Positions 27,286-48,464 of a DNA stretch of 54,050 nt are shown piece after piece. The stretch lies in assembly GCA_964547855.1 (NCBI GenBank), contig CAZJPG010000004.1, positions 1-54,050 of the forward strand, written 5' to 3'. The translations under genes were made by a program, and so were the position numbers. The notes beneath the pieces were generated by a model, which did not search any database, was not told where the DNA came from, and saw only the letters and a program-made list of their open reading frames with translations. Each line of letters opens with the position of its first letter. Position 1 is the stretch's first letter. The DNA comes from an uncultured Gammaproteobacteria bacterium (GTDB lineage: Bacteria; Patescibacteriota; Patescibacteriia; Patescibacteriales; WJLG01).

Positions 27286-27954
27286 GTGGATATTTTAAAG
27301 AAATTTCGGGCGGAGAATTCTGCCTCGGAAAGCAATCTTAGTAGTAGTCAAAAGCTGGCCGTTTTCGGGCTAGCTATTTTGGGTATAACGACGATGATCT
27401 TTTGGGCGATCGGAATGAAGAATAACATATACCGCCCATTGGAGCCGAAGAGTAATGAGGCATCGAATGCGACTTGCCCGAATGGAAATTGTTCAGGCGT
27501 TGCCGATCAAACGAAATCGCAAGACACGGACCAAGATGGATTGTCGGATTGGGATGAGACTAATGTCTATGGCACGTCTCCATATATAGAAGACACTGAT
27601 AGCGATGGCATAAAAGACGGTGACGAGATCGCTCTTGGCACCGACCCCAATTGTCCTGCTGGGCAGGATTGTTCCGGTGCATCATCTGTTATCGAATCGA
27701 ATGTTACTACTGGCAACACTTCAGAAGATTCGACTATGCCAGATTCTCTTAATTTGAGTAAAGAGCAAGTCGAGGCTAATCAAGATGCGATCAACCAAGC
27801 GTTCACAGGTCAGGCAGATGCCAAAACATTAAGAGAGTTATTGAAAAAATCAGGTATGCCACAAGATATTTTAGATCAGATGACGGATGATCAGATAATG
27901 GCAGCCTATTTATCAACTTTAGAGTCCGCTACTTCCAATCAAACTGGAAATTAA
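27286..27954 (+). CDS. Single-TM protein with bacterial TSP3-like Ca-binding repeats
   Basis: DTDQDGLSDWDE and DTDSDGIKDGDE motifs; N-terminal TM; Cys pairs. Confidence 0.75.
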   Translation: MDILKKFRAENSASESNLSSSQKLAVFGLAILGITTMIFWAIGMKNNIYRPLEPKSNEASNATCPNGNCSGVADQTKSQDTDQDGLSDWDETNVYGTSPYIEDTDSDGIKDGDEIALGTDPNCPAGQDCSGASSVIESNVTTGNTSEDSTMPDSLNLSKEQVEANQDAINQAFTGQADAKTLRELLKKSGMPQDILDQMTDDQIMAAYLSTLESATSNQTGN

Positions 27955-27970: not shown

Positions 27971-30900
27971 ATGAGCCTCAACTCGCACAATCAAAAGAAA
28001 GAGCCTTCCAAAATGAAGAAGCTCTTTTTGGGCGTCTTGGTCGCGGTATTCTCTTTAACTATCGCAACCTCTGCCGCTCCTGCCAATGCTCAAATAAGCA
28101 TTGTTGGATCTATTCCTGAAGTGACGACTAATCTTTTAGACAAGCTAAAAGAAGTATTTTCGACTTTATTAAAGAAGACTGGTTCGGCTTTAATGAATAG
28201 TGCGGTAAAGAATGCGGTCAACACCTTGGCATATGAGGCTGCCAATAAGGTGGGGGCTGGAATGACCGGACAGAAGCCGATGTATGAAGAGAAGGAATGG
28301 GGAGATATTTTTGCCGACACCGGCAATGCTGCTATTGGAGGTTTTATAGATTCCATGGATGAAGTTTGGGGGGTGAATCTTTGTGAACCAGATTTGAGCG
28401 TTAAGCTTAAGATAGGTCTTGGACTCAAGGCTCAATCTGCTCCACCTAAACCAAGTTGCGATTGGCAGACTTTGAGCAAGAATTGGGACATGGAAAAGTT
28501 AAAAGGAGATTTCACCAAAAATTTCGCCGTCACCTTTGAACCGAATAATAGCGATCTTGGGGCTGCTAGATTCTTGCTTAATTCCATGTTAGAGAAGGAA
28601 GCCTCCGAAGTCGCCGATAAAAAATTGGAAACAATGTCCAATCAAGGTTGGTTAAATCCTCGTAACATAGGTGGTATAGCCAAAACCTTTCCTGATAATG
28701 CCAAAATTCAGCTAGAAGGATCCAACCAGGCTTATTGGAATAGTATGGGAAAGGTCACTGGAGATATTTTTACTGACGCCGCTAATGTTTTTTTGAATCA
28801 ATTAGCCATAACGACTTATCAAGGAATAATGGCCAATTTAACGGAAAAGAGTAAGGATAACTCAAACGGATTAGCTGATGCTTCGGCTGATCCTTCGGCT
28901 GGCGGCGGAGCCGCTGGTGTACGTAGTGGTTTGGCTAAGATCGTTGAATCGCGATTCGATAGCCGAGGTGATTATGATATTTTAGGAGAATTGTCGTCTT
29001 GCGCTTCGACTCCAGGTGGTGTCGGGCCGACGAATTGTGTTATCGATGAGCGCATGCGCCAAGCTATAGAGCAAAAAAAGACCGTTGGCCAGGCCTTGAA
29101 AGAAGGTTTGTTAAGGTCTGATGCTCCATTTGGTTTCGTTTCTACTGGCAACGGCTTGGAACCTAACTATCTTGAGGGAATACCGTATCGTTCGATGTTG
29201 ATATTACGTAAATTTAGAATAATACCAGTTGGGTGGGAGTTGGCCGCTCAAAAAATATATAGCAGCAATGATGCTAAAAAGAACGCTTATTTGGGGAAAA
29301 TGGTTGAGTGCTATTCAAAAGATGATGCTTATGAAGGGTACTGGTCCGACTGGTGTAATGGGCTAGTCGACCCGGATTGGGTTTTGAAAGCGCCGCAGAA
29401 TTATTGCGCCAAGGAAGGTTATGGCCCGCAAGTTATCTTTAGCCAAGCCGTAGAGCAGGGATCGGAGAACGTTGTGACAGAGAAAGAAGATGTCGATGGA
29501 GATGGCATTCTTGATACCGAAGATGCTAATGGTAATAAAGTCCTTGATTCAGGAGAGGATATTAATGGTAATGGCGTCTTAGACACGGAGGATGTTAATG
29601 GTAATGGCGTCTTAGATGAAAAAAACGAAATAATTAAGTTGCCGCCAAAATTGATCGTTAATCGCTTGGATGGATATTGTGCCGATGAACAGTCATGTAT
29701 TAAAGAAAAGGCTGATGGTTCTTGTGAATATTATGGTTACTGCACGGAGGAGCGCAGAAAATGGAGTTTTGGTGGTGATTCTTGTGAGCCAGTCTTTAAT
29801 ACCTGCCAGACATTCAAAGGTGAGAAAGGGGAGTCGATCTCTTACTTGAAGAATACCTTGGATTTTTGTGATGCTAGCGACTATGGTTGTGAAAGATATG
29901 CCAAAGCCTCTGTTTTGAGTTATAGCACGACCGCCAAAGCTAATAATTGGTCTAATAACGATGGTTATAGTTATTTCAATAAAAATGCCCAGGAGTGCGA
30001 CGCCGATAATGAGGGCTGCCATGAATTTTTGAGAATAGCTAAGGGTGTTGGTACTAATTTGATCCGTAATTCTGGTTTCGAACAGAACCAGAATAGTGAT
30101 TATTGTACGACGATGTTCTCTGTGGATTGTAGTATATTTTCTCCGGAAGAATCTTCGGCCAGTAATCCTGGAGCTGAGCCAGAGAGATTTTGGCGCATCA
30201 AAAGCCAAGGAGGAGGTGGAGCTATAGCCGACGATGCTCCAGATCGCGGCGGTAATGTTCTTAGAATTAATTCTTCTGTCTCACCGGCCGGTTGGTATTC
30301 TCCAGATAGATCTGCTGGCTCCGATTACTCGGTCTTGCCACAAGGTTTTGTTATGGAGCCAGAGGTCTCTTATACCTTGAGTGCCGACATATACAATATA
30401 GATGCCGATAGAGTTGTTTTGGCCATAGGACGAGAGGGGCAATATTGGGAGGCTAAAGAAATAACGTCTCAAGGTAGCTGGGTTAGGGAGTCGGTCACTA
30501 TAAGAAACAATCAAGATATTTTAGCCAATGAAATAAGGATTTTCGGTTACGGTTCTTCGGGTGTAGCTTTTTATATAGACAATATTAAGTTTGAAATAGG
30601 GAACAAGGCTACGGCTTATAATGATTATCGTCAGAGCAATCTTGTCTACGAAAGACTCTTGCCGATCTATCTTGAGCCGATTTGCTATGTCGATGCCGCC
30701 AATGGCGACTATCGTCTAAAATCAGACGCTCCGACCGAATGCCGTCAATATGCTCGTAAGTGTAATCGTGATGAGGCTAACTGCGAAATGTTCACCTCGA
30801 CGAAGGATGGAGCTAAATTGCCAGCCGCCGTTGGTGATAAGGACTATTGTAGTGCTGAATGCAATGGTTTTGATTCCTATGTTCAGAGCCAAAATAATTT

Positions 30901-33900
30901 TAATTCACGTCAGGCTTTCTACTTTATTCCTAAGACGGCCGCGGTTTGTTCGGCCGCAGATGTGGGTTGCGAAGAATTTACAAACTTGGACAAAAGCGAG
31001 CAGGGTGGCGAGTCGCGTGAGTATTACAGTTATTTAAGGCAGTGCGTTAAACCAAACACTTCTGGCAATACTTGTGCTAGTTTCTATACTTGGGAAGGTA
31101 ATAATGAACAGGGTGAGCAGTTATCTTTGCATAATTTGAAGTCGGACCCCTCTGGAGATGTGTCGTTGACTAGCAGTGATCTCGGACTTTGTAGTGAGAC
31201 CATCTTTAATCTTGCTCCGACCGATCTTGGATATAATCCGGATTGCCGCAAATTCTATAATCAATCCGGTGGGGTCTCGTATCATCTTTATTCCAGAACG
31301 ATTTCTTGTACCGAGGATTGCCACCCTTATAGGATGAGCAATAAGAACGTCGACCCAGCCATAACTTCTTCGGCTGCTTGTACTGGCGCTTCGCGCAGTT
31401 GGGATAGTTCGATCAATGCTTGCCGCTATTGTGAGAACGGTGGGACTTGGAGCAGTGAACATCAGGCTTGTATATATAACGCCACTCCAGGTGAGAGTAC
31501 TGCCTGTTCCGCTTCGGCTAATGGTTGCTCTGAATTCAATGGCAATCAGGGAAATAACGTCAGACAGCTATTGCTGGATACTTTTGAGGCTGGGTCTAAT
31601 TCATGGAATGGTGGAACGGTCATGTCTTCTGCTGTTAGCGGTCTGAAGTCTTATCAAATAACTTCGACCGTCAGCCGTCAAGTCGGGAGGTCTGTTAAAC
31701 AAGGGGGCTCTTATGCCTTGAGTTTTATCGCAAAGCCGACAGGTTCTTCCGATGTCCAAGTAAGTGTTAGTATTGGTAATGGTATGTTGATCGATTCTTT
31801 TAGTGCTAACGCCGAAACAGAGTCATCGGTCACTGCTAAAGCTGACGAGTGGAATCTGTATCAACTCAATCTTCCTGTTTTAAATCACGAAGTCACCGAT
31901 TCAGAGATGTTGATAATAAGCATTTCCGGCGGCGGTGTCTATCTCGACAATATTAAATTGACCGCTATCACCGAACGTTATTATTTAGTCAGAAATTCAT
32001 GGAAGACGCCGGATTCTTGTAATCAGGATGAAAATGGCAAGCCTTATCCTTTGTATATGCTGGGTTGCTCGGAATATAAAGATCGTCTTGGCAATATACA
32101 TTATTTGCATCGTTTCTCTAGACTCTGCCAGGAGTCGGCCGTTGGTTGCGAGGCGATGATCGACACTCAGAATTCCACTAAGCAGTCCAGTGAATATTTC
32201 TCCGCTGGAACTGGTACCTTGGTCCCTTCCGATAGGGTGTCGTATGCTGTCTATGATCCGGATAAGAAATGCAAGAGCACTAGCAAAGGTTGTGAACGCT
32301 TTGGTTTGGCCAAAGAATATCAGAACTCATATACTTATTCCGACGTTTTTATAAAGAATGACCCTGATAAATATTCAAGTACGCTTTGCTCTCAGGAAGG
32401 CGTTGGTTGTAACAAGTGGGCGGCTGCCGATGGTGATTATTATTTCAAGGATCCTGGTGATATGGTCTGTGAGTGGCGCATAGGTAAATTACCAAGCAAG
32501 AGCGCGCCTGATTGGGGCTGGTTCAAGAAGAAGGTCAAGCGTTGCAATGGTACGGATGCAGTTTGTTCGTCTAATCTAGATTGTGCTATCGGGACTTGTC
32601 AGCTTGAGACCACTCCAGATGAGGATTTAGCTTGTCCAGTGTCTAGTCTTAAGACTTTTGGCCAGGGCGGCATGGGTAACGAAGTGTTCCAGCCAGTTGA
32701 GGAGTCTGGGTTTAATTGGGTTGGACTATGTTCTACCGATCAATCTGGCTGTACCGAATATATAGAGCCGGTCAGCGAGTTTTCTTCCAACTTGATATAT
32801 AATGCCGATTTTAGGCAGGATATAGATGGCAATGGTGTCGCCGATGGCTGGACAAGTCCGGCCAATGGTCAGAGCCTGTTCTTGGAGGGAGGAAGTCTCT
32901 ATGCGTTGACGGTCGAGGGGGCGAATATGGCCACTGTCAACGTTTCCTCTCCGACCTTTATGCCATTCCATTTGTTAAGTAGTGATAATTCACTTCTTGA
33001 TCCTATTGGCAGCTTCGTCGTTCATGGCAGTTCAAGCGTGATATTTTATCTTAATAGCAACGCCGAACCAGCGGTGACGGTTTCTAGTAATGACGCCAAT
33101 AATTCTTCTAAGATAATATTAAGAAAAGTCATAACTGACTATCAGCTAACGTCTGATGTGGACAAGAAATCTTGCAATGGAGTCGCCAATGTCGGCAATG
33201 GCTGCGTTTACTTTAATGAGAGATCGGTCGTAGGAGCTTCTGGTCTGTCATCGCTGACCAAGAACGCGTGGTTGGAGTATGGCAAAGAGATAAATGTTGG
33301 CAACCCAGTCAATAATGTCAACCAGCTTATAAAAGTATCGCCTGACCGCGTTTGTAATACTTGGTTGTCATGCAAAACTTACACGAAGGGCGATGACAAT
33401 AAACCAGTCTGTTTCGATATCGCCGAATGCGATCGTTTGGACGCTGGTGGAAATTGCGCCAACTTCAAAGTTATCGAGCCTAATCGGAAGCAAGATCGTG
33501 TCTACGATCCGACCGATCCTACGGCCGAAAATTCCGAGACCGTAAAGAACGCCTCTGGCTATGTTAAGATCGCCTACGCCGGAGTTCCTACTAGTATCTC
33601 GGTTAAGAATTGGCTTCCGAGCGATTACAAGCTTTTTGGCTTGATGGAGCAGGACGGAGAGAAAGTCAATGTCTCCAATGGTAATTTTGAGGACAATATC
33701 AAAGAATTGAATTCTAATAAAAACGGGTTTGTCTATAAGCCAATGGGTTGGTCTCCGGCCAATGCCAATTGGGATTCGTCTTCAATCGGAGGTAGTGGTA
33801 TGTTCCAGGTGATAACCGATCCGTTGTCAGCTCAAAATTTCGGCATAGATTATCCAGCCGAAGGCAGAGCCTTCTTGCAGTATAGTCCGGCCAATTCCGA

Positions 33901-36244
33901 TAACTATCCTTATTCGGATGCGATCAGGATTTCGACTAATAAAGAGTATTATTTAAGTTTTAAGATAAATACTACTAAGCTTTTAGGTGGAAGTTCTAAA
34001 GCTGTCGTTCAGGTCCTTAAACAGAACGGAGACGTGATAGGCGGCTGGGAATTTGGCAGTTCTCTTGATTGGTACGCTACGACCACGGTCTTTACCTCGG
34101 TCGATTCAAATATCGTCCATCTGCGTCTCGGTGCTTCCGGCTCAGCTTTGGGCGGTTACATCTATATCGATGACATAAAGATATCTCCGGTACTGAAGAC
34201 CAAGGAAGATGGAAGCCAATGGCTAGCCAGCCAGTCGTGTAAGCTATATCCGAAAGAGGATTCCTTGTCATGTGATTACTATGATGATGCCGGCATACGC
34301 CTAAAAGGCGATCTTGGCTATTGTCTTGAGTATGATCGCGCCCCTGGAGATCCGAACACTTGTCTCTTGTGGTGGCCGATCGATAAGGTCAGTGGACAGG
34401 GGGAGGGTAAAAAATCGTCTAGCGGGGATGTTAAGGGGTATACTGGTTCAGCACCATTGTTCTATTGTGTGGCAGCTGAAGACAGGAGGCCATATATAGA
34501 TGCCACTCAAGTTTTTTGGTCGGTTGATGAAACTATATCGTTAACTGTTAATGGTGTAAATGTTCTTGGTGGAGAGGTTGGCTACAATAGAGAGGGTGGT
34601 AGAGATGGGCAGTCGGCTATTTATGACGCTGACCCAACAAGATCTGGCATGGTGCCGTTTATGGACAACACAACAATATCTAGTGTGGCAGAAAGAAGAG
34701 TTTATCTTAATCCTGGTGTTAATAATATTTCAGTTACTTTGGACTCTGATGGCGGTGGCGGGGCTACTGTCATGTTGTTTGGCGGTCGATTTGTCTATTG
34801 GAGTTATGGCGGTATTCAGCAAACTGGAGTCTTTAATATTACAAATCAAACCACAGCAAGAACTTCGGAAGTCTCTAATTCTAATTATGGTGGAAACGCT
34901 AGGATTTATAATTGCGAAATTGACAATGGTTCCGGAGACAATGTTGCGATAGATGCGTTTTTCACTGCTGGTAATTTTGACGATGGCAGAAGAAGGCTTG
35001 TGTTTGCTCCTGAAAATGGTGGTAATGAAGATGGTGAGTGTGATTACGGAGGAAGTATAGGCGGTAGAACCGTTACCTTCACCATAACATTGCCAGAGTA
35101 CGGATGCAGAAGCGTAGCCCAGGTTGTTGATCGCAATGGAACGAATAAGGCTTGGGTTGAAAGATTGAAAGAGTCTAGCAAGTATGAAGCTCTGTGCAAT
35201 ACTCAGGCTGGTATGCCATCGTGGGCGAGTAGTTTGAGAATGTATGACAATGCCGAAGGGCGCAATGTGACAATCGCCGCGGCCAATGGTACATGTTCTT
35301 ATAGTGCCAACAATACTCCTTATGGATCGATAACACCTCCGGCCGGAACCGAATTCGAAATGATGTCACCATCGGAATGGGGTAGGATTAATTTAGGTAT
35401 TCCGTTATTGTATAGGTCATCAGGCGCTAATATGGGACAGCTTTATTCGCCGTCGACTTTGAGTTATTTATTCGCTGAGAGCTATGGTGTTTGGGATTGG
35501 GACGATGGTCTTAAAACATATAAAATAAATTATAGCTCAGCCTTGAATTGGTCATCTCCAGCTGATATTTGTACGAATAACGTTCGCCCAACGTCTAATA
35601 ATAATTGTGCTGTTAGACCATCTCTTAGTAATGATAGCGGCGATAGCAATAGCTTGAGACTTAATGGCGGCGCTAATGCTGTGGTTTTGGGTCGTGGTTT
35701 CGTCAACTTAACATTCAACAGTCAAGTGGATTCACAGCAGGCCCCGTTGGTGATGTATGAGGTCGATTGGGGTGATGGTGAGAAGCTGACCGTTTCCGGG
35801 TCAGAGATGAAGGATATGCCTAGCAAGGACTATCCTCACTCTGCTTACCATGCTTATGACTATTGGGATATTTTGGCCAAGAGTAATGCGGCTTTAGTTA
35901 AAGAAAAAATGCCAACAGTTATCTGTAATCCAAAAGACGGCACGCATCCTTGGGATTATTGCACGCTTAAGCCGAAGGTTAAGGTCAAGGATAATTGGGG
36001 TTGGTGCAGCGAGGGTCGTGATGGCGTACCTTGTCCATCGCCTTCGTCGGCTAAATGCATCCTTTCCGGTAATGCTGGTTTGAATGATCCGGCTGCCATT
36101 ACGATGTCTAATTGCAGAAACTATTCAGTGAGCGCTTATGCTAGTAATCCATCAAGGACTTGTCCTTCATCAAGGCCGGTCTGCAGTGATGGTTATTATG
36201 AGACTTCGGGGGAGGTAGTAGTCTATAATTACATAGGAGAATAG
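27971..36244 (+). CDS. Giant (2757 aa) Cys-rich exported protein with CBM-like and Ca-binding modules
   Basis: Signal peptide MKKLFLGVLVAVFSL...ANAQ; DxNGNGVLD repeats; N[LI]..N.[GN]FE CBM4/9-like starts; very high Cys content. Confidence 0.85.
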   Translation: MSLNSHNQKKEPSKMKKLFLGVLVAVFSLTIATSAAPANAQISIVGSIPEVTTNLLDKLKEVFSTLLKKTGSALMNSAVKNAVNTLAYEAANKVGAGMTGQKPMYEEKEWGDIFADTGNAAIGGFIDSMDEVWGVNLCEPDLSVKLKIGLGLKAQSAPPKPSCDWQTLSKNWDMEKLKGDFTKNFAVTFEPNNSDLGAARFLLNSMLEKEASEVADKKLETMSNQGWLNPRNIGGIAKTFPDNAKIQLEGSNQAYWNSMGKVTGDIFTDAANVFLNQLAITTYQGIMANLTEKSKDNSNGLADASADPSAGGGAAGVRSGLAKIVESRFDSRGDYDILGELSSCASTPGGVGPTNCVIDERMRQAIEQKKTVGQALKEGLLRSDAPFGFVSTGNGLEPNYLEGIPYRSMLILRKFRIIPVGWELAAQKIYSSNDAKKNAYLGKMVECYSKDDAYEGYWSDWCNGLVDPDWVLKAPQNYCAKEGYGPQVIFSQAVEQGSENVVTEKEDVDGDGILDTEDANGNKVLDSGEDINGNGVLDTEDVNGNGVLDEKNEIIKLPPKLIVNRLDGYCADEQSCIKEKADGSCEYYGYCTEERRKWSFGGDSCEPVFNTCQTFKGEKGESISYLKNTLDFCDASDYGCERYAKASVLSYSTTAKANNWSNNDGYSYFNKNAQECDADNEGCHEFLRIAKGVGTNLIRNSGFEQNQNSDYCTTMFSVDCSIFSPEESSASNPGAEPERFWRIKSQGGGGAIADDAPDRGGNVLRINSSVSPAGWYSPDRSAGSDYSVLPQGFVMEPEVSYTLSADIYNIDADRVVLAIGREGQYWEAKEITSQGSWVRESVTIRNNQDILANEIRIFGYGSSGVAFYIDNIKFEIGNKATAYNDYRQSNLVYERLLPIYLEPICYVDAANGDYRLKSDAPTECRQYARKCNRDEANCEMFTSTKDGAKLPAAVGDKDYCSAECNGFDSYVQSQNNFNSRQAFYFIPKTAAVCSAADVGCEEFTNLDKSEQGGESREYYSYLRQCVKPNTSGNTCASFYTWEGNNEQGEQLSLHNLKSDPSGDVSLTSSDLGLCSETIFNLAPTDLGYNPDCRKFYNQSGGVSYHLYSRTISCTEDCHPYRMSNKNVDPAITSSAACTGASRSWDSSINACRYCENGGTWSSEHQACIYNATPGESTACSASANGCSEFNGNQGNNVRQLLLDTFEAGSNSWNGGTVMSSAVSGLKSYQITSTVSRQVGRSVKQGGSYALSFIAKPTGSSDVQVSVSIGNGMLIDSFSANAETESSVTAKADEWNLYQLNLPVLNHEVTDSEMLIISISGGGVYLDNIKLTAITERYYLVRNSWKTPDSCNQDENGKPYPLYMLGCSEYKDRLGNIHYLHRFSRLCQESAVGCEAMIDTQNSTKQSSEYFSAGTGTLVPSDRVSYAVYDPDKKCKSTSKGCERFGLAKEYQNSYTYSDVFIKNDPDKYSSTLCSQEGVGCNKWAAADGDYYFKDPGDMVCEWRIGKLPSKSAPDWGWFKKKVKRCNGTDAVCSSNLDCAIGTCQLETTPDEDLACPVSSLKTFGQGGMGNEVFQPVEESGFNWVGLCSTDQSGCTEYIEPVSEFSSNLIYNADFRQDIDGNGVADGWTSPANGQSLFLEGGSLYALTVEGANMATVNVSSPTFMPFHLLSSDNSLLDPIGSFVVHGSSSVIFYLNSNAEPAVTVSSNDANNSSKIILRKVITDYQLTSDVDKKSCNGVANVGNGCVYFNERSVVGASGLSSLTKNAWLEYGKEINVGNPVNNVNQLIKVSPDRVCNTWLSCKTYTKGDDNKPVCFDIAECDRLDAGGNCANFKVIEPNRKQDRVYDPTDPTAENSETVKNASGYVKIAYAGVPTSISVKNWLPSDYKLFGLMEQDGEKVNVSNGNFEDNIKELNSNKNGFVYKPMGWSPANANWDSSSIGGSGMFQVITDPLSAQNFGIDYPAEGRAFLQYSPANSDNYPYSDAIRISTNKEYYLSFKINTTKLLGGSSKAVVQVLKQNGDVIGGWEFGSSLDWYATTTVFTSVDSNIVHLRLGASGSALGGYIYIDDIKISPVLKTKEDGSQWLASQSCKLYPKEDSLSCDYYDDAGIRLKGDLGYCLEYDRAPGDPNTCLLWWPIDKVSGQGEGKKSSSGDVKGYTGSAPLFYCVAAEDRRPYIDATQVFWSVDETISLTVNGVNVLGGEVGYNREGGRDGQSAIYDADPTRSGMVPFMDNTTISSVAERRVYLNPGVNNISVTLDSDGGGGATVMLFGGRFVYWSYGGIQQTGVFNITNQTTARTSEVSNSNYGGNARIYNCEIDNGSGDNVAIDAFFTAGNFDDGRRRLVFAPENGGNEDGECDYGGSIGGRTVTFTITLPEYGCRSVAQVVDRNGTNKAWVERLKESSKYEALCNTQAGMPSWASSLRMYDNAEGRNVTIAAANGTCSYSANNTPYGSITPPAGTEFEMMSPSEWGRINLGIPLLYRSSGANMGQLYSPSTLSYLFAESYGVWDWDDGLKTYKINYSSALNWSSPADICTNNVRPTSNNNCAVRPSLSNDSGDSNSLRLNGGANAVVLGRGFVNLTFNSQVDSQQAPLVMYEVDWGDGEKLTVSGSEMKDMPSKDYPHSAYHAYDYWDILAKSNAALVKEKMPTVICNPKDGTHPWDYCTLKPKVKVKDNWGWCSEGRDGVPCPSPSSAKCILSGNAGLNDPAAITMSNCRNYSVSAYASNPSRTCPSSRPVCSDGYYETSGEVVVYNYIGE
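29555..29620 (+). repeat. 33-bp tandem duplication encoding Ca-binding loops
   Basis: gaggat(a/g)ttaatggtaatggcgtcttaga x2, encoding ED[IV]NGNGVLD. Confidence 0.85.
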
Positions 36245-36543: not shown

Positions 36544-37860
36544 ATGCGTAACGTATTATTGACCCTGTTGTCGTTGGCCTTGGTAGCCAACGTTATGTCA
36601 GCGGAGAATGTTAATGTTGATTTTTTCACTTCTTCGAACTGGATAAAGTCTGCTGGTGTTAACATGAACAATGAATATAATTATCCGAAAAGCTCGCACC
36701 CTTTTCGCAATGAGGAGTGGATTTCTGCGACTACCAATATTTATTCAGTGTCTTCTTCCAGCAACTTTGAGGTTTTGGATCATTTCCTTCTTCCCTCTGA
36801 CATGCCATCTAATTATCAAGCGGTGTTCGAATTCGCTTTCGACAATTTTGGTAATATTTGGATGGCTCATCACGAGGGCGTTACTCGGTATAATGAAAAG
36901 ACCAAGACCTGGAAGCATTATACTGACCTTGGTTTGGGAAGTCAGGCTCGGGCTCGTCGCATTCAGTACGACAGCAAGCACAAAAAGCTTATGGTCGGAA
37001 CGATCGACGGTTTCGTCTCAGCAACGATCAATCCTGACGGCTCCGTGGCTAGTTGGAATAAGATGCTTCCTGACAGCACCGATAAGACGGTCCACTGCAT
37101 CGGTTATTATAACGATGAAATGTGGGCCCAGAATACCAAGAATATTTACCATTATGTCGATGGCAAATGGACTGGATATTCAGCTGAGGACCTTGGTGCT
37201 GTGACATTCGTTCGGCCGGCCACTGCCTTTGTGGATAAGAATGGTGATTGCTGGACAGCTGTCATGGATACTGAGATCGTATTCAATTCGAAGTATCGAT
37301 TGGCTAAATTTGAACATTCTTCCGGTTCTTGGAAGAGCGTTCAGGTCGAGGGTGTCGATGAGTGGGATCCGCATAGTGCTGAAACGCATCGTATGGCTAA
37401 CGGAATATATTCGATCGCCATCGATAGAAATGGTGTTATGTGGTTGTCTGGCGTCTGGAGCTTGATGAAGGTAAACGACCTTGCAGCTTCGAAATTGACC
37501 GTAAAGTACATGACCAAGTGGGATAATGGTGACTTGCTGAACACCGATTATGTCATTCTCGGCCTTAATCCGGCCAGTGGATTGAAGGTATCGGCTCGCA
37601 AGCAGATAGAAGATACCACCGGTCTTGGAGCGTATTACGCTTCAGTATCGTCGGTTCGCCAGCCATTCATTCGAAACTTGACCATTGCTCGCAACAAAGG
37701 TCAGCAGTACATCGGCACTTTTTCGCTCGATGGTCGTCGAATCGCCAAGTCCAATCCAGCACTTTCGGCCGGAAATTATCTTCAGATGTTCCGGACGGCA
37801 GAGGGGCAAAATAGTATTGTCAAAGTTATGAGTTTGACCGCCAATCCTTCTCATAATTAA
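36544..37860 (+). CDS. Secreted beta-propeller (Reg_prop-like repeats) with a T9SS/Fibrobacter-like C-terminal tail
   Basis: AAGGAG SD; signal peptide; repeats FDNFGNIW, VDKNGDCW, IDRNGVMW; tail TFSLDGRRI...LSAGNYL. Confidence 0.7.
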   Translation: MRNVLLTLLSLALVANVMSAENVNVDFFTSSNWIKSAGVNMNNEYNYPKSSHPFRNEEWISATTNIYSVSSSSNFEVLDHFLLPSDMPSNYQAVFEFAFDNFGNIWMAHHEGVTRYNEKTKTWKHYTDLGLGSQARARRIQYDSKHKKLMVGTIDGFVSATINPDGSVASWNKMLPDSTDKTVHCIGYYNDEMWAQNTKNIYHYVDGKWTGYSAEDLGAVTFVRPATAFVDKNGDCWTAVMDTEIVFNSKYRLAKFEHSSGSWKSVQVEGVDEWDPHSAETHRMANGIYSIAIDRNGVMWLSGVWSLMKVNDLAASKLTVKYMTKWDNGDLLNTDYVILGLNPASGLKVSARKQIEDTTGLGAYYASVSSVRQPFIRNLTIARNKGQQYIGTFSLDGRRIAKSNPALSAGNYLQMFRTAEGQNSIVKVMSLTANPSHN

Positions 37861-44405: not shown

Positions 44406-45092
44406 ATGGCAGAAAGGAAAAATGAACTAGCAAAGGGGAGAATAAGCGTTTCGACGCAGCAGTTTTTGGATATCGCTGAGATTAAGGACGATACAGTGGT
44501 TATGCGCGACGGTACGGTGCGTGCCGTTCTTTTGGTCTCTAGTATTAATTTTGCCTTGAAGAGCGAAGAAGAACAGGATGCTATTGTCGGATCGTATGTT
44601 GGTTTTTTGAATAATATAAATTTTCCCGTGCAAATAGTCATTCAGTCGCGTCGTTTGAATATAGATAACTACATAAACGAACTAAAGAAGAAAGAAAAGG
44701 AACAGACTAACGAACTCCTCAAGATGCAGACGACTGAGTATATAAATTACATACAAGAGATCGTTCAGCTCGGCGACATCATGAGCAAGAGTTTCTATAT
44801 CGTCATTCCGTACAATCCATTGTCTGATAAGCACAAAGGATTTTTTGCCTCCATGCAAGAAGTCTTCAAGCCAGCTTCGGTCGTAAGGATGAAAGGCAAG
44901 CGTTTCGAGCGTTATAAGTCAGAGCTACAGCGCCGTCTTGAGAGTATCCAATCTGGCATGCAGTCCGCAGGATTAAAGACGGTTCGCTTGGATACCCAGG
45001 GTTTAATAGAGCTTTATTATACGACCTATAATCCCGATACGGCTGAAAACCAAAAGCTGACCGATATAAAGAATTTAAGGGTAGTAGGTTAA
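44406..45092 (+). CDS. T4SS-associated protein (TraC/VirB4 N-terminal-like)
   Basis: STQQFLDIAEIKD, VSSINF.LKSEEEQ, FLN..NFP.QIVIQSR; lies between prgI and the ATPase. Confidence 0.65.
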   Translation: MAERKNELAKGRISVSTQQFLDIAEIKDDTVVMRDGTVRAVLLVSSINFALKSEEEQDAIVGSYVGFLNNINFPVQIVIQSRRLNIDNYINELKKKEKEQTNELLKMQTTEYINYIQEIVQLGDIMSKSFYIVIPYNPLSDKHKGFFASMQEVFKPASVVRMKGKRFERYKSELQRRLESIQSGMQSAGLKTVRLDTQGLIELYYTTYNPDTAENQKLTDIKNLRVVG

Positions 45093-45126: not shown

Positions 45127-47037
45127 GTGATTATGATAGATTTAAAAAAGGCCAATTTAGAACAGAAAAAACCGGTCAAAGATGAAGACGACGTAGAACT
45201 ACCTGAAAAGGAGAATGTGATGTATGTCGAGGAGTTAATCGAAGAGGAGCGGGCTTTTAGGCGTGGAGTTTTATCGATCATCGATCTGATCTCTCCGGCG
45301 GCCATGGAAGTCACCCCGGATCATATTCGCCTGGGCGGCAAATTCGTACGCACGCTTTTTATTATTGGTTATCCGAGATATATCAGTGTCGGGTGGTTCG
45401 CGCCAATAATAAATATGAATGAAGTCTTTGATGTATCTATGTTCTTCTACCCGGTCAAGACCTCTATAATATTGAAACAGCTTAAGAAAAAAGTCGGCGC
45501 CTTGGAAGCGCAGATCATCGGTGACGCCGAAAAAGGAGCTGCTCGCGATCCATTGGCCGAGACCGCTTTGAAAGATATTGAATATTTGCGCGATGCCTTG
45601 ACTCAGGGCATAGAGAAATTTTTTCAATTTTCTCTATACGTGAGCCTTTACGCCGATACCAAGGAAGACCTCGATAAATTTTCCGATCGAGTCGAGGATA
45701 TATTCGGTTCAAGATTGGTGTACTCGAAAAAAGTTTTCTTTCAATCGGAGCAAGGATTTAATTCTACAGTCCCATTGTGCAACGATGAATTGTACATAAC
45801 TTTCAACATGAATTCCTCTCCGGCAGCCTCGTCCTTTCCATTCATTTCGTCCGACCTAACCTCTGATCATGGTATTCTTTACGGAATAAATCGCCACAAT
45901 AATAGCTTGATATTGTTTGATCGCTTCTCTTTGCAGAATGCCAATACACTTGTCTTCGCTACTTCTGGTGCTGGTAAAAGTTACTGTATAAAATTAGAGA
46001 TATTACGTTCCCTTATGATGGGTGCTGACGTTATAGTCATTGATCCGGAATATGAGTATAAACATTTATGCGAATCCGTCGGTGGAACGTATATCAACAT
46101 TTCGCTATCCAGTGAAGAGAAGATAAATCCTTTCGATCTGCCTCGCTCCATGGGTGGCAAATCGAAACCGGGAGATATTATCCGCGGTGCCGTTATTACT
46201 GTTAAAGGTTTGGTGAAGTTGATGCTTGGCAGTCTTGATCATACCGAAGATTCGATCGTTGATCGCGCTTTATTGGAGACATATGCCAAGAAAGACATTA
46301 CTCCAGACGCCGATCTGTCCAATGTCGAGCCGCCGATAATGTCGGACTTTCAAGAGGTCTTAGAGGGTATCGAAGGCGGGTCTGATTTGGCGCAGAGATT
46401 AAAGAAATACACCGAAGGAACTTTCGCTGGTATTCTGAACTATCCGACTAATGTCAAAATGAACAATCAGCTCGTCTGTTTCTCGGTTCGCGACTTGGAG
46501 GACGAATTAAGACCTTTGGCTATTTATACTATAGTCAATTATATTTGGAATATAGTTCGTTCTGAGCTCAAGAAGAGGATATTGGTTATCGATGAGGCTT
46601 GGTGGTTGATGCAGAGCGAGGATAGTGCCAAGTTCATTTATGCGCTAGTCAAGCGTTGTCGTAAATATTATCTCGGTGTCACTACGATCACTCAAGACGT
46701 CAACGACTTTTTGTGTTCGCCTTATGGTCAAGCCATAGTCACCAACTCATCCTTGCAAATGTTGCTGAAGCAGTCTCCGGCCGCCATAGATCTGATTCAA
46801 AAGACCTTTGCTTTGACCGAGGGTGAGAAATATTTATTACTAGAATCCGGAGTCGGCGAAGGAATAATGTTTGCTGGCAATAAGCACGCTGCTATTAAAA
46901 TCGTCGCTTCTTATACGGAAGACCAGCTCATAACTACCGACCCCAGGCAGTTATTGGAGATCGAGGAAGCTAAGAAGGAGTTCGCCGCTTCACAGGACCA
47001 AGGAGAGGGTACACCGGTTTTGGATATGCCTATTTAA
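45127..47037 (+). CDS. VirB4-like T4SS ATPase
   Basis: Walker A ATSGAGKS, IDPEYEY, INPFD, Walker B LVIDEAW, RKY..G..TITQD.NDF. Confidence 0.9.
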   Translation: MIMIDLKKANLEQKKPVKDEDDVELPEKENVMYVEELIEEERAFRRGVLSIIDLISPAAMEVTPDHIRLGGKFVRTLFIIGYPRYISVGWFAPIINMNEVFDVSMFFYPVKTSIILKQLKKKVGALEAQIIGDAEKGAARDPLAETALKDIEYLRDALTQGIEKFFQFSLYVSLYADTKEDLDKFSDRVEDIFGSRLVYSKKVFFQSEQGFNSTVPLCNDELYITFNMNSSPAASSFPFISSDLTSDHGILYGINRHNNSLILFDRFSLQNANTLVFATSGAGKSYCIKLEILRSLMMGADVIVIDPEYEYKHLCESVGGTYINISLSSEEKINPFDLPRSMGGKSKPGDIIRGAVITVKGLVKLMLGSLDHTEDSIVDRALLETYAKKDITPDADLSNVEPPIMSDFQEVLEGIEGGSDLAQRLKKYTEGTFAGILNYPTNVKMNNQLVCFSVRDLEDELRPLAIYTIVNYIWNIVRSELKKRILVIDEAWWLMQSEDSAKFIYALVKRCRKYYLGVTTITQDVNDFLCSPYGQAIVTNSSLQMLLKQSPAAIDLIQKTFALTEGEKYLLLESGVGEGIMFAGNKHAAIKIVASYTEDQLITTDPRQLLEIEEAKKEFAASQDQGEGTPVLDMPI

Positions 47038-47720: not shown

Positions 47721-48464
47721 ATGTTTTTTATGAGTAAGGCCTCTAAACCAAAAAATAAATTTTTCAATAATTTGTTTGTGGTCGTGTCTATAGCGGCCTT
47801 GCTTGTTGTCATGGCTACGTTTTCTTTTTTGTTGAGACAGTTGCGATATCCTGTTGCCAAGGAACTGATCTCAGAATCATATTATTCGCCTAGCGTTCCA
47901 GTGAGAACGGAGACCGACGATCCGTTTATAACCAAGGGCGAGGCGGCTAAGGAATTATTACTTAGTCCAGTGGTAGATGGGCGCGATCCGCAGATCGGTC
48001 CGGACGATGCTAAGATCACAATAGTCGAATTCTCTGATTTTTCTTGTGATGTCTGTGCTCAACAAGAAGAGGTGATAAAGGAGGTCATGGAAAAATATAA
48101 GGACCAAATAAAGCTGGTTTGGAAGGATTTACCGGATGTCGATACTTTGTCATATGAGGCGGCCGTAGCCGCTCGTTGTGCTGGAGAACAAGGAAAATTT
48201 TGGCAAGTTCATGATTTTTTATTTTCTGATCCAGGAGCATTCTCCGCTTCTTTGTCTGACGTATCGGACAAGACCGGTTTGAACTCTTCTGATTTCTCGT
48301 CATGTTTTTCGTCTGGAAGGCATGATAGTGATATAAAAAGGAATATGGAAGAGGCTAGTGCCTTGCGCATTCCTGGTGTACCTTTCTTTTTTGTCGGCGA
48401 TCAGGAATATTTAGGCTCCATAGATAAGGAGGATTTAGAAAGAATTATAGAAAAGGGCCTTTAG
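47721..48464 (+). CDS. Membrane-anchored DsbA-family oxidoreductase
   Basis: EFSDFSCDVC, GKFWQVHD.LF, GVPFFF. Confidence 0.88.
   Translation: MFFMSKASKPKNKFFNNLFVVVSIAALLVVMATFSFLLRQLRYPVAKELISESYYSPSVPVRTETDDPFITKGEAAKELLLSPVVDGRDPQIGPDDAKITIVEFSDFSCDVCAQQEEVIKEVMEKYKDQIKLVWKDLPDVDTLSYEAAVAARCAGEQGKFWQVHDFLFSDPGAFSASLSDVSDKTGLNSSDFSSCFSSGRHDSDIKRNMEEASALRIPGVPFFFVGDQEYLGSIDKEDLERIIEKGL

What the first reader, a model, noticed from the sequence alone, without database searches (positions are those of the whole stretch)
29860..32760. Nine dispersed copies of a C-x5-GC-x2-aromatic motif in the giant protein
Seen: CDASDYGCERY, CDADNEGCHEF, CNRDEANCEMF, CSAADVGCEEF, CSASANGCSEF, CQESAVGCEAM, CKSTSKGCERF, CSQEGVGCNKW and CSTDQSGCTEY, several flanking the CBM-like modules. 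I recognise no named family. Inference: a novel disulfide-stapled stalk repeat into which lectin domains are inserted.
Basis: partly seen in the sequence, partly recalled or inferred. Interest (0 to 1): 0.65.

Follow-up and report, generated by a model that had tools for sequence, protein, structure and literature searches.

The report
Conserved cysteine loops in giant protein
Nine copies of a short two-cysteine loop are real and unchanged in hundreds of relatives of a giant exported protein of ultra-small (Patescibacteria) bacteria; they most likely act as small disulfide clasps that stiffen the protein, and the family has no name yet.

Summary
All nine C-x5-[G/N]-C-x2-[FYWM] strings are in the 2757-aa ORF (window 27971-36244), against 0.04 expected by chance. 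All 18 cysteines are invariant at the same nine positions in 112 homologues and 82 species genomes.

No Pfam, NCBIfam or PDB family matches. The family (about 1,100 clusters at 50% identity) contains only giant Patescibacteria proteins. They lie in conserved synteny beside a monoderm-type T4SS-like cluster, with a membrane-anchored DsbA (CDVC) in the window's own cluster.

AlphaFold gives the same local shape in eight of nine copies: Cys, a three-residue helical turn, Gly, then a second Cys that opens a beta strand carrying the hydrophobic residue. Two variable loops of the same type are gained or lost only as cysteine pairs, which argues for local disulfides. Bond geometry could not be measured.

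This is an 11-24-residue motif, not a domain-sized stalk repeat. Three copies, plus a C-x8-C variant, are the N-terminal cap of a repeated "Cys-loop + jelly-roll (CBM-like)" unit. The other six lie in conserved Cys-rich scaffolds between variable lectin-like modules.

It is a new variant of a known kind, of moderate interest.

The parts
27971..36244 (+). Giant ORF, 2757 aa (P0001). It has an N-terminal signal/anchor segment (aa 15-38) and 82 Cys, and is otherwise predicted extracytoplasmic.
   Evidence: full-length homologues
29783..29815 (+). Copy 0 (aa 605-615, CEPVFNTCQTF): a C-x6-C-x2-F variant with Thr in place of Gly
   Evidence: weaker profile match to the other copies
29867..29899 (+). 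Copy 1 (aa 633-643, CDASDYGCERY)
   Evidence: model 1 shows Cys, a helical turn at 76-78, and a strand at 82-86
29996..30028 (+). Copy 2 (aa 676-686, CDADNEGCHEF): N-terminal cap of jelly-roll unit U1
30047..30634 (+). Jelly-roll module J1 (about aa 693-888). It is highly variable between homologues; P0042 has a Laminin_G_3 domain at this position.
30761..30793 (+). Copy 3 (aa 931-941, CNRDEANCEMF), in scaffold A
30947..30979 (+). Copy 4 (aa 993-1003, CSAADVGCEEF), in scaffold A
31505..31537 (+). Copy 5 (aa 1179-1189, CSASANGCSEF): N-terminal cap of jelly-roll unit U2. This is the one copy that falls in a low-confidence stretch of the model.
31553..31972 (+). Jelly-roll module J2 (about aa 1195-1334). 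It is CBM_4_9-like: sub-threshold in this protein, above threshold at the same position in homologues.
32126..32158 (+). Copy 6 (aa 1386-1396, CQESAVGCEAM), in scaffold B
32270..32302 (+). Copy 7 (aa 1434-1444, CKSTSKGCERF), in scaffold B
32387..32419 (+). Copy 8 (aa 1473-1483, CSQEGVGCNKW), in scaffold B
32729..32761 (+). Copy 9 (aa 1587-1597, CSTDQSGCTEY): N-terminal cap of jelly-roll unit U3
32777..33154 (+). Beta-sandwich module J3 (about aa 1603-1728)
33173..33214 (+). Variant loop C1735-x9-C1745-V-Y-F. Its two Cys are replaced together, never singly, in homologues.
33428..33466 (+). Variant loop C1820-x8-C1829-x2-F, aligned with copy 2 as the head of jelly-roll unit U4
33626..34222 (+). 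Jelly-roll module J4 (about aa 1886-2084); homologues hit DUF642 and CBM_4_9_1 here
47721..48464 (+). Membrane-anchored DsbA-like thiol:disulfide oxidoreductase with a CDVC active site, in the same T4SS-like cluster; the likely oxidase for the giant protein
   Evidence: DsbA genes also lie near the giant gene in L001 and L002
38803..47037 (+). T4SS-like genes downstream: VirB6/TrbL-like, two unknown genes, PrgI (VirB3-like), a TraC-like N-terminal part, and a VirB4-like ATPase
   Evidence: synteny conserved

Best explanation
Each motif is a small structural clasp in an exported, disulfide-rich giant surface protein. Cys(i) and Cys(i+7) are inferred to form a local disulfide that closes an 8-residue ring. 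Residues i+2 to i+4 make one helical turn, and the near-invariant Gly at i+6 allows the tight return. Cys(i+7) is the first residue of a beta strand, whose hydrophobic or aromatic residue at i+10 packs back against the loop. The clasp fixes the start of a beta hairpin. Three copies, plus a C-x8-C variant, are the N-terminal cap of a repeated 'Cys-loop + jelly-roll' unit. The other six rigidify the conserved Cys-rich scaffolds that separate the variable lectin-like modules. The DsbA-like oxidase encoded in the same T4SS-like cluster probably performs the oxidation. Shown here: the motif, its invariance, its restriction to this family, the shared predicted local conformation, export, and the presence of DsbA. 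Inferred: the i/i+7 disulfide, the packing role of i+10, and the rigidifying function. The role of the whole protein (host contact or adhesion for the Patescibacteria T4SS-like apparatus) is also inferred, from synteny and from variable lectin modules on an invariant scaffold.
For: Enrichment is 9 copies against 0.04 expected. All motif Cys are invariant in 113 family members; in 83 GTDB-derived sequences the only exception is one gapped sequence at copy 1587. Gly at i+6 is 91% conserved when the copies are pooled. A 23-column motif HMM finds the nine copies at the same nine orthologous positions in every one of the 82 locus homologues (one or two misses at copies 1473 and 1587). It finds none above noise in about 2,150 other ORFs of the loci. 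AlphaFold models show the same DSSP pattern (Cys, 3-residue helical turn, Cys as strand start) at 8 of 9 copies in model 1 and again in model 2. An optional C-x(4-9)-C loop between copies 6 and 7 has both Cys in 56/83 and 33/113 homologues, no Cys in the rest, and never one alone. The variant loop C1735/C1745 has both Cys in 100/113 and 65/83, neither in 13 and 18, and one alone in 0. The protein has a single N-terminal hydrophobic segment. A TM-anchored DsbA with CDVC lies in the cluster. Units U1, U2 and U3 align end to end including the loop, at 90-98% probability. Conserved scaffolds alternate with variable modules.
Against: No coordinates were available, so the S-S distance of any i/i+7 pair was not measured. 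The nine canonical pairs never vary, so their own pairing cannot be read from covariation; the pairwise gain and loss comes from two related loops. Model confidence is moderate (mean pLDDT 71 and 68). Copy 5 and the sequence after copy 9 lie in low-confidence stretches. No member of the family has been studied experimentally, and no cultured organism carries it.
Confidence: 0.7

Rival explanations
1. The motif cysteines do form disulfides, but not with each other. They cross-link to other conserved cysteines of the scaffold, or between subunits, so the C-x6-C spacing reflects a shared loop rather than a closed ring.
For: The scaffolds hold many other invariant cysteines close by, such as 905/924, 960/964, 1025/1035 and 1500-1555. 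The pairing of the nine canonical copies is not directly observed.
Against: Every conserved segment keeps an even Cys count with the motif pair counted as one unit. Loops of the same type are gained and lost strictly as pairs. The nine copies share a spacing of exactly 6 with a Gly before the second Cys, which is what a closed ring would constrain.
Confidence: 0.13
2. The loops are functional sites rather than clasps: metal-binding knuckles, redox-active switches, or ligand-contact loops that recognise the host surface.
For: Absolute conservation of short surface loops is also typical of binding sites. The loop interior is rich in Asp, Glu, Ser and Asn.
Against: Two Cys alone, without a conserved His, Cys or Asp partner, make a poor metal site. 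Loop residues i+1 to i+5 vary between homologues while Cys, Gly and the hydrophobic residue are fixed, which is the signature of a structural motif. The variable elements of the protein are the jelly-roll modules, not the loops.
Confidence: 0.07
3. The recurrence is a chance or compositional by-product of a Cys-rich protein.
For: The protein has 82 Cys, and C-x6-C alone is expected 2.4 times by chance.
Against: The full pattern is expected 0.04 times and occurs 9 times. All copies are positionally conserved across hundreds of homologues. Profile-profile alignments between copies are in register at E values of 1e-4 to 1e-9.
Confidence: 0.01

Closest known systems
CBM_4_9 / CBM22 / CBM16 jelly-roll carbohydrate-binding modules (Pfam PF02018 and relatives)
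   Same: The modules that follow copies 2, 5 and 9 are beta-sandwich jelly rolls. Homologues pass the Pfam thresholds for CBM_4_9 or Laminin_G_3 at these positions. The model matches CBM22, CBM16 and CBM4 structures with target-normalised TM-scores of 0.64-0.70.
   Different: In this family the jelly roll carries a disulfide-type Cys loop 19-20 residues before its first strand, as part of the duplicated unit. I am not aware that this is described for CBM4/9/22 (my own knowledge, not tested). Sugar binding was not tested.
Eukaryotic cysteine-rich ectodomain repeats (furin-like / GCC2_GCC3 / TNFR-type, e.g. Elapor1)
   Same: They work alike: short disulfide-pinned beta hairpins build rigid extracellular scaffolds with little hydrophobic core. 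Elapor1 appeared among the low-TM hits of the large model.
   Different: There is no sequence-profile match. The TM-score is about 0.1. Those repeats carry 3-4 disulfides per 40-50 residues with CxxC elements, whereas here there is one C-x6-C ring per unit. This is not a member of those families.
Surface adhesins of monoderm conjugative T4SS (e.g. PrgB of pCF10)
   Same: It is a large exported surface protein with lectin-like modules, encoded beside VirB6/PrgI/VirB4-type genes. A 2025 survey reports that no PrgB-type adhesin was detected in Patescibacteria T4SS loci (PMC12102498), so this family is a candidate for that role.
   Different: There is no sequence similarity and no LPXTG or C-terminal anchor. 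The protein is about twice the size, Cys-rich and chromosomal, with no relaxase nearby. The function is inferred from context only.
Bacterial thrombospondin type 3 repeats (Pfam TSP3_bac)
   Same: They are present in the same gene pair: a D-x-D-x-D-type run at aa 507-552 of the giant protein and a Pfam hit in the upstream small protein.
   Different: These are calcium-binding Asp-rich loops without cysteines, unrelated to the motif. The run in the giant protein is absent from about 90% of homologues.

Membership tests
Any named Cys-rich repeat or domain family (Pfam-A, NCBIfam) | A match to the family HMM at or near its gathering threshold | tested here: not met
   The whole protein gives no relevant hit at E<=1. 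Among 83 scaffold-B segments scanned singly, the commonest family matched only 4 members, all sub-threshold.
Any solved structure family (PDB) | Sequence or fold similarity of the Cys scaffold to a solved chain | tested here: not met
   phmmer and profile hmmsearch return 0 hits. Foldseek on the scaffold-B model gives a best E of 0.8 against PDB and 0.42 against BFVD, with TM-scores mostly below 0.35 on short alignments. The model's pLDDT is only 68, so a missed fold cannot be excluded.
Local disulfide loop (structural cystine clasp) | Extracytoplasmic location and an available oxidase | tested here: met
   There is a single N-terminal hydrophobic segment with an A-x-A site. A TM-anchored DsbA-like protein with CDVC lies in the same cluster, and DsbA genes lie near the orthologous genes in L001 and L002.
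Local disulfide loop (structural cystine clasp) | The two cysteines are conserved, gained and lost as a pair | tested here: met
   The canonical pairs are invariant. The optional loop near aa 1408 has both Cys or neither, never one. C1735/C1745 are both present or both replaced, never one alone. The direct evidence comes from variant loops, not from the nine canonical copies.
Local disulfide loop (structural cystine clasp) | S-S bonding geometry between Cys(i) and Cys(i+7) | not testable with these tools
   Structure prediction returns only pLDDT and DSSP, and no coordinate file appears in /data.
Domain-sized tandem or dispersed repeat ('stalk repeat') | Homology between copies that extends over a domain-length unit | tested here: not met
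   hhalign between 33-column family profiles aligns only 11-24 columns, centred on the motif. Scaffold-versus-scaffold comparisons reach only 60-64% probability over 74 columns.
CBM_4_9-type jelly roll (the flanked modules) | Pfam HMM match and jelly-roll fold | tested here: met
   P0001 itself is sub-threshold (12.5 bits against a cutoff of 25.9). Homologues pass at the same position (29.3 and 37.3 bits), and one has Laminin_G_3 at 87.9 bits. Fold matches to CBM22/16/4 have TMt 0.64-0.70. J1, J2 and J4 are mutually homologous. Carbohydrate binding was not tested.

The most novel reading that the evidence does not exclude
The Cys-loop + jelly-roll unit and the Cys-loop scaffolds define a previously undescribed extracellular fold family. 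Under this reading it forms the host-contact arm of the Patescibacteria (class ABY1/Falkowbacteria-type) T4SS-like apparatus: an invariant disulfide-clasped frame that displays rapidly swapped lectin modules for host recognition. That would make it the adhesin reported missing from these systems.
Probability: 0.25. Interest if true: 0.7.

Novelty: new variant of a known kind. Interest (0 to 1): 0.42.

Why it matters
Patescibacteria make up a large share of bacterial diversity and live attached to other cells, yet how they recognise hosts is largely unknown. Their T4SS-like system is essential for epibiotic growth in the one lineage tested (PMC10633639), and no adhesin has been assigned to it (PMC12102498).

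This motif is the most sharply conserved signature of a giant exported protein found beside that system. A relative is encoded in 447 GTDB species genomes, and the family spans about 1,100 protein clusters at 50% identity.

The motif gives a simple sequence handle for annotating the family. It marks the boundaries of the swappable lectin-like modules. It also predicts that correct folding needs the cluster's own DsbA, which matters for anyone trying to express fragments for structural or binding studies.

On its own, the motif is a structural detail rather than a new mechanism.

Tried and rejected
1. Measuring disulfide geometry was not possible. Structure prediction gives no coordinates and nothing is written to /data.

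I used 34 rows for model 1, and fragment rows taken from genome loci for model 2.

4. The look-up of encoding contigs for the window's own protein returned nothing on record.

5. I checked whether contig JAQUPG010000006.1 holds the window, because its length equals that listed for P0002. It carries a 39%-identical orthologue with its own LeuRS and KsgA, and has no nucleotide match to the window, so I dropped this lead.

6. Three full-text literature searches found no description of the motif or of the giant family.

7. A motif-only HMM search of the 1.84-billion-protein library was considered and rejected. Each copy scores 11-24 bits, so only multi-copy family members could reach significance. 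I searched with the scaffold-B profile instead.

8. The metal-site and chance explanations were rejected for the reasons given under the rival explanations.
Full report
**1. The observation**

The finding lies inside one ORF, window 27971-36244 (+), 2757 aa. All nine quoted strings are present, at residues 633, 676, 931, 993, 1179, 1386, 1434, 1473 and 1587 (DNA 29867-32761). The pattern C-x5-[GN]-C-x2-[FYWM] occurs nine times. In 2000 shuffles of the same residues the mean was 0.04 and the maximum 2. A tenth copy without Gly (CEPVFNTCQTF, residue 605) precedes them. Among successive cysteines, a gap of 7 is the commonest, seen 13 times.

**2. Conservation and family**

The region finds more than 600 proteins, nearly all 2.3-3.0 thousand residues long. 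Those that carry a name are labelled hypothetical, and the organisms named are Patescibacteria, Falkowbacteria or Parcubacteria.

- In an alignment of 113 full-length members (38-64% identity), all 20 cysteines of the ten copies are invariant. So are almost all cysteines between residues 138 and 2131.
- A scan of one genome per GTDB species found relatives in 447 species. In the 82 loci I examined, the 20 cysteines are again invariant, apart from one gapped sequence at copy 1587.
- Each copy keeps its own preferred hydrophobic residue: Y at 633, F at 993, M at 1386, L at 1434 and W at 1473. The copies are therefore old and individually constrained.
- The pooled logo is C-[SND]-A-x-x-[VA]-G(91%)-C-x-[E]-[YFLMW]-[TI].
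- A 23-column HMM of the motif scores each copy at 11-24 bits. It recovers the nine copies at the same nine orthologous positions in every homologue (one or two misses at copies 1473 and 1587). It finds nothing above noise in about 2,150 other ORFs of the window and loci.
- A profile of residues 1325-1625 searched against 1.84 billion representative proteins finds 1142 proteins at E<=1e-3 and 1101 at E<=1e-10. All of the best 150 are family members or fragments of them. The family is closed, with no tail of distant relatives in other architectures.

**3. Is it a known family?**

No.

- Pfam and NCBIfam give nothing relevant on the protein.
- When 83 scaffold segments were scanned one by one, no Pfam family matched more than 4 of them, and all such matches were below threshold.
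- There is no PDB sequence match, either by single sequence or by profile.
- Foldseek with the large model finds only the jelly-roll modules (CBM22, CBM16, CBM4; target TM 0.64-0.70) plus low-TM multidomain hits.
- The scaffold-only model has no significant match in PDB (best E 0.8) or BFVD (best E 0.42).
- Three full-text literature searches found no description.

**4. Do the copies share a fold?**

Locally, yes. Model 1 covers residues 560-1750 (34 rows, pLDDT 71, pTM 0.52). Model 2 covers residues 1325-1625 (83 rows, pLDDT 68).

In eight of nine copies of model 1, DSSP gives the same pattern:
- the first Cys;
- a three-residue helical turn at i+2 to i+4;
- the second Cys as the first residue of a beta strand, which contains the i+10 hydrophobic residue and usually pairs with a following strand.

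Model 2 repeats this pattern at copies 7, 8 and 9. At copy 6 it shows the strand but no helical call. Copy 5 lies in a low-confidence loop.

The similarity is short, however. hhalign between family profiles of the copies is always in register but spans only 11-24 columns, at E values of 1e-4 to 1e-9. Scaffold-to-scaffold comparisons reach only 60-64% probability. This is a motif, not a domain-sized repeat.

**5. Relation to the lectin-like modules**

Conservation along the protein alternates:
- conserved Cys-rich stretches at about 570-690, 870-1200, 1320-1620, 1710-1830 and 2070-2160;
- variable modules at about 690-870, 1200-1320, 1620-1710 and 1830-2070;
- a hypervariable region at 2160-2370.

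Homologues pass Pfam thresholds for CBM_4_9, Laminin_G_3 or DUF642 in the module positions. J1, J2 and J4 are mutually homologous.

Copies 2, 5 and 9 each end 19-20 residues before the conserved Phe of the first jelly-roll strand. Units U1 (669-877), U2 (1172-1333) and U3 (1580-1725) align end to end, loop included, at 90-98% probability. U4 (1815-2079), which carries a C-x8-C-x2-F variant, aligns with U1 at 90%.

So three canonical copies and one variant are the N-terminal cap of a duplicated Cys-loop + jelly-roll unit. The other six copies lie in the inter-module scaffolds.

**6. Are the pairs disulfides?**

There is indirect support from four sides.

- The only hydrophobic segment is N-terminal (residues 15-38, ending ...APANA|Q), so the rest of the protein is outside the cell.
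- The same gene cluster encodes a membrane-anchored DsbA-like protein with a CDVC active site. DsbA genes also lie near the orthologous genes in two distant genomes.
- An optional C-x(4-9)-C loop between copies 6 and 7 (mostly C-x6-C) is present with both Cys in 56/83 and 33/113 homologues. It is absent with no Cys in the rest, including this protein, and never has a single Cys.
- The related loop C1735-x9-G-C1745-V-x-F keeps both Cys in 100/113 and 65/83. It has both replaced, with the loop length kept, in 13 and 18. It never has one alone.

Such strictly paired behaviour is the usual signature of a local cystine. The nine canonical pairs never vary, so for them the bond is inferred by analogy and from the constant spacing. 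Geometry could not be measured, because no coordinates are returned.

**7. Context and likely role of the protein**

The gene order in the window is:
- Exo_endo_phos, LeuRS, MFS, (two minus-strand genes), KsgA;
- a small TSP3 protein, the giant protein, a Reg_prop protein and a 211-aa protein;
- a VirB6/TrbL-like protein (840 aa), then 367-aa and 460-aa proteins;
- PrgI, a TraC-like N-terminal part, a VirB4-like ATPase and a 214-aa protein;
- DsbA, then RadA, with RecG nearby.

The backbone from KsgA through the small TSP3 protein and the giant gene recurs in homologues of only about 40% identity. Where the fetched flank reaches far enough (L001), it continues through VirB6-sized, PrgI, TraC-like and VirB4-like genes.

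A 2025 survey describes the Patescibacteria T4SS as homologous to monoderm conjugation machinery. It notes radA and recG beside it in class ABY1, and states that no PrgB-type adhesin was detected (PMC12102498). In Saccharibacteria the T4SS is essential for epibiotic growth and lacks a relaxase and coupling protein (PMC10633639).

From this I infer, without proof, that the giant protein is a surface or host-contact component associated with that apparatus. Its invariant disulfide-clasped frame would display variable lectin-like modules.

**8. Verdict**

A novel disulfide-type motif with a shared local structure is supported. A 'stalk repeat into which lectin domains are inserted' is not: the motif is short, and part of it belongs to the lectin unit itself.

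Cystine-pinned extracellular scaffolds are a well-known principle, while this motif and its family are undescribed. I therefore rate it a new variant of a known kind, with interest 0.42. The more novel reading, that this is the missing host-contact arm of the Patescibacteria T4SS-like system, has a probability of about 0.25.

Noticed in passing
window 27286-27954 (+): A small protein (222 aa) with an N-terminal TM segment, a TSP3_bac repeat and two short Cys pairs (CPNGNC, CPAGQDC) lies directly upstream of the giant gene. A TSP3-type or unannotated small gene of 212-224 aa occupies the same place in L001, L002, L083 and L084, so it may be a conserved partner.
   Followed up: partly
window 44406-45092 and 45127-47037 (+): The VirB4-like ATPase is preceded by a separate 228-aa TraC-like N-terminal ORF. 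The same split (224 aa + 634 aa) occurs in L001, so it looks like a conserved two-gene arrangement rather than a frameshift.
   Followed up: partly
window 29489-29626 (aa 507-552 of the giant protein): An Asp-rich run of thrombospondin-type-3-like calcium loops (DVDGDGILDTEDANGNKVLD...) is an insertion that about 90% of homologues lack.
   Followed up: partly
window 34450-35080 (aa about 2160-2370 of the giant protein): This is the most variable part of the family (identity about 5%, 55-87% gaps). Some homologues (P0046, P0055) instead carry long C-terminal extensions with CGDG...CDDG-type Cys-rich repeats. It is probably the main specificity-determining region.
   Followed up: no
window 30104-30130 (aa 712 and 720 of the giant protein): An extra Cys pair (C-x7-C) inside jelly-roll J1 is unique to this protein among the 113 aligned. 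This is another case of cysteines appearing as a pair.
   Followed up: partly
homologues, between aa 1393 and 1434 of P0001 (e.g. L001, P0037): Most of the more distant homologues have an additional C-x6-C-V-x-V loop (consensus ND......C......CV.V.AD) that the window's protein lacks.
   Followed up: yes
window 36544-37860 (+): The slot between the giant gene and the VirB6-like gene is variable. Here it holds a Reg_prop beta-propeller protein; in L002 a PSII_BNR protein with a Por_Secre_tail; in L001 an aspartyl/asparaginyl-type tRNA synthetase.
   Followed up: no
L006/L084 (JAQUPG010000006.1): This contig has the same length (79,385 bp) as the one listed for the window's own protein P0002. It carries a 39%-identical orthologue with its own LeuRS and KsgA, and has no nucleotide match to the window. 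The coincidence is unexplained.
   Followed up: partly
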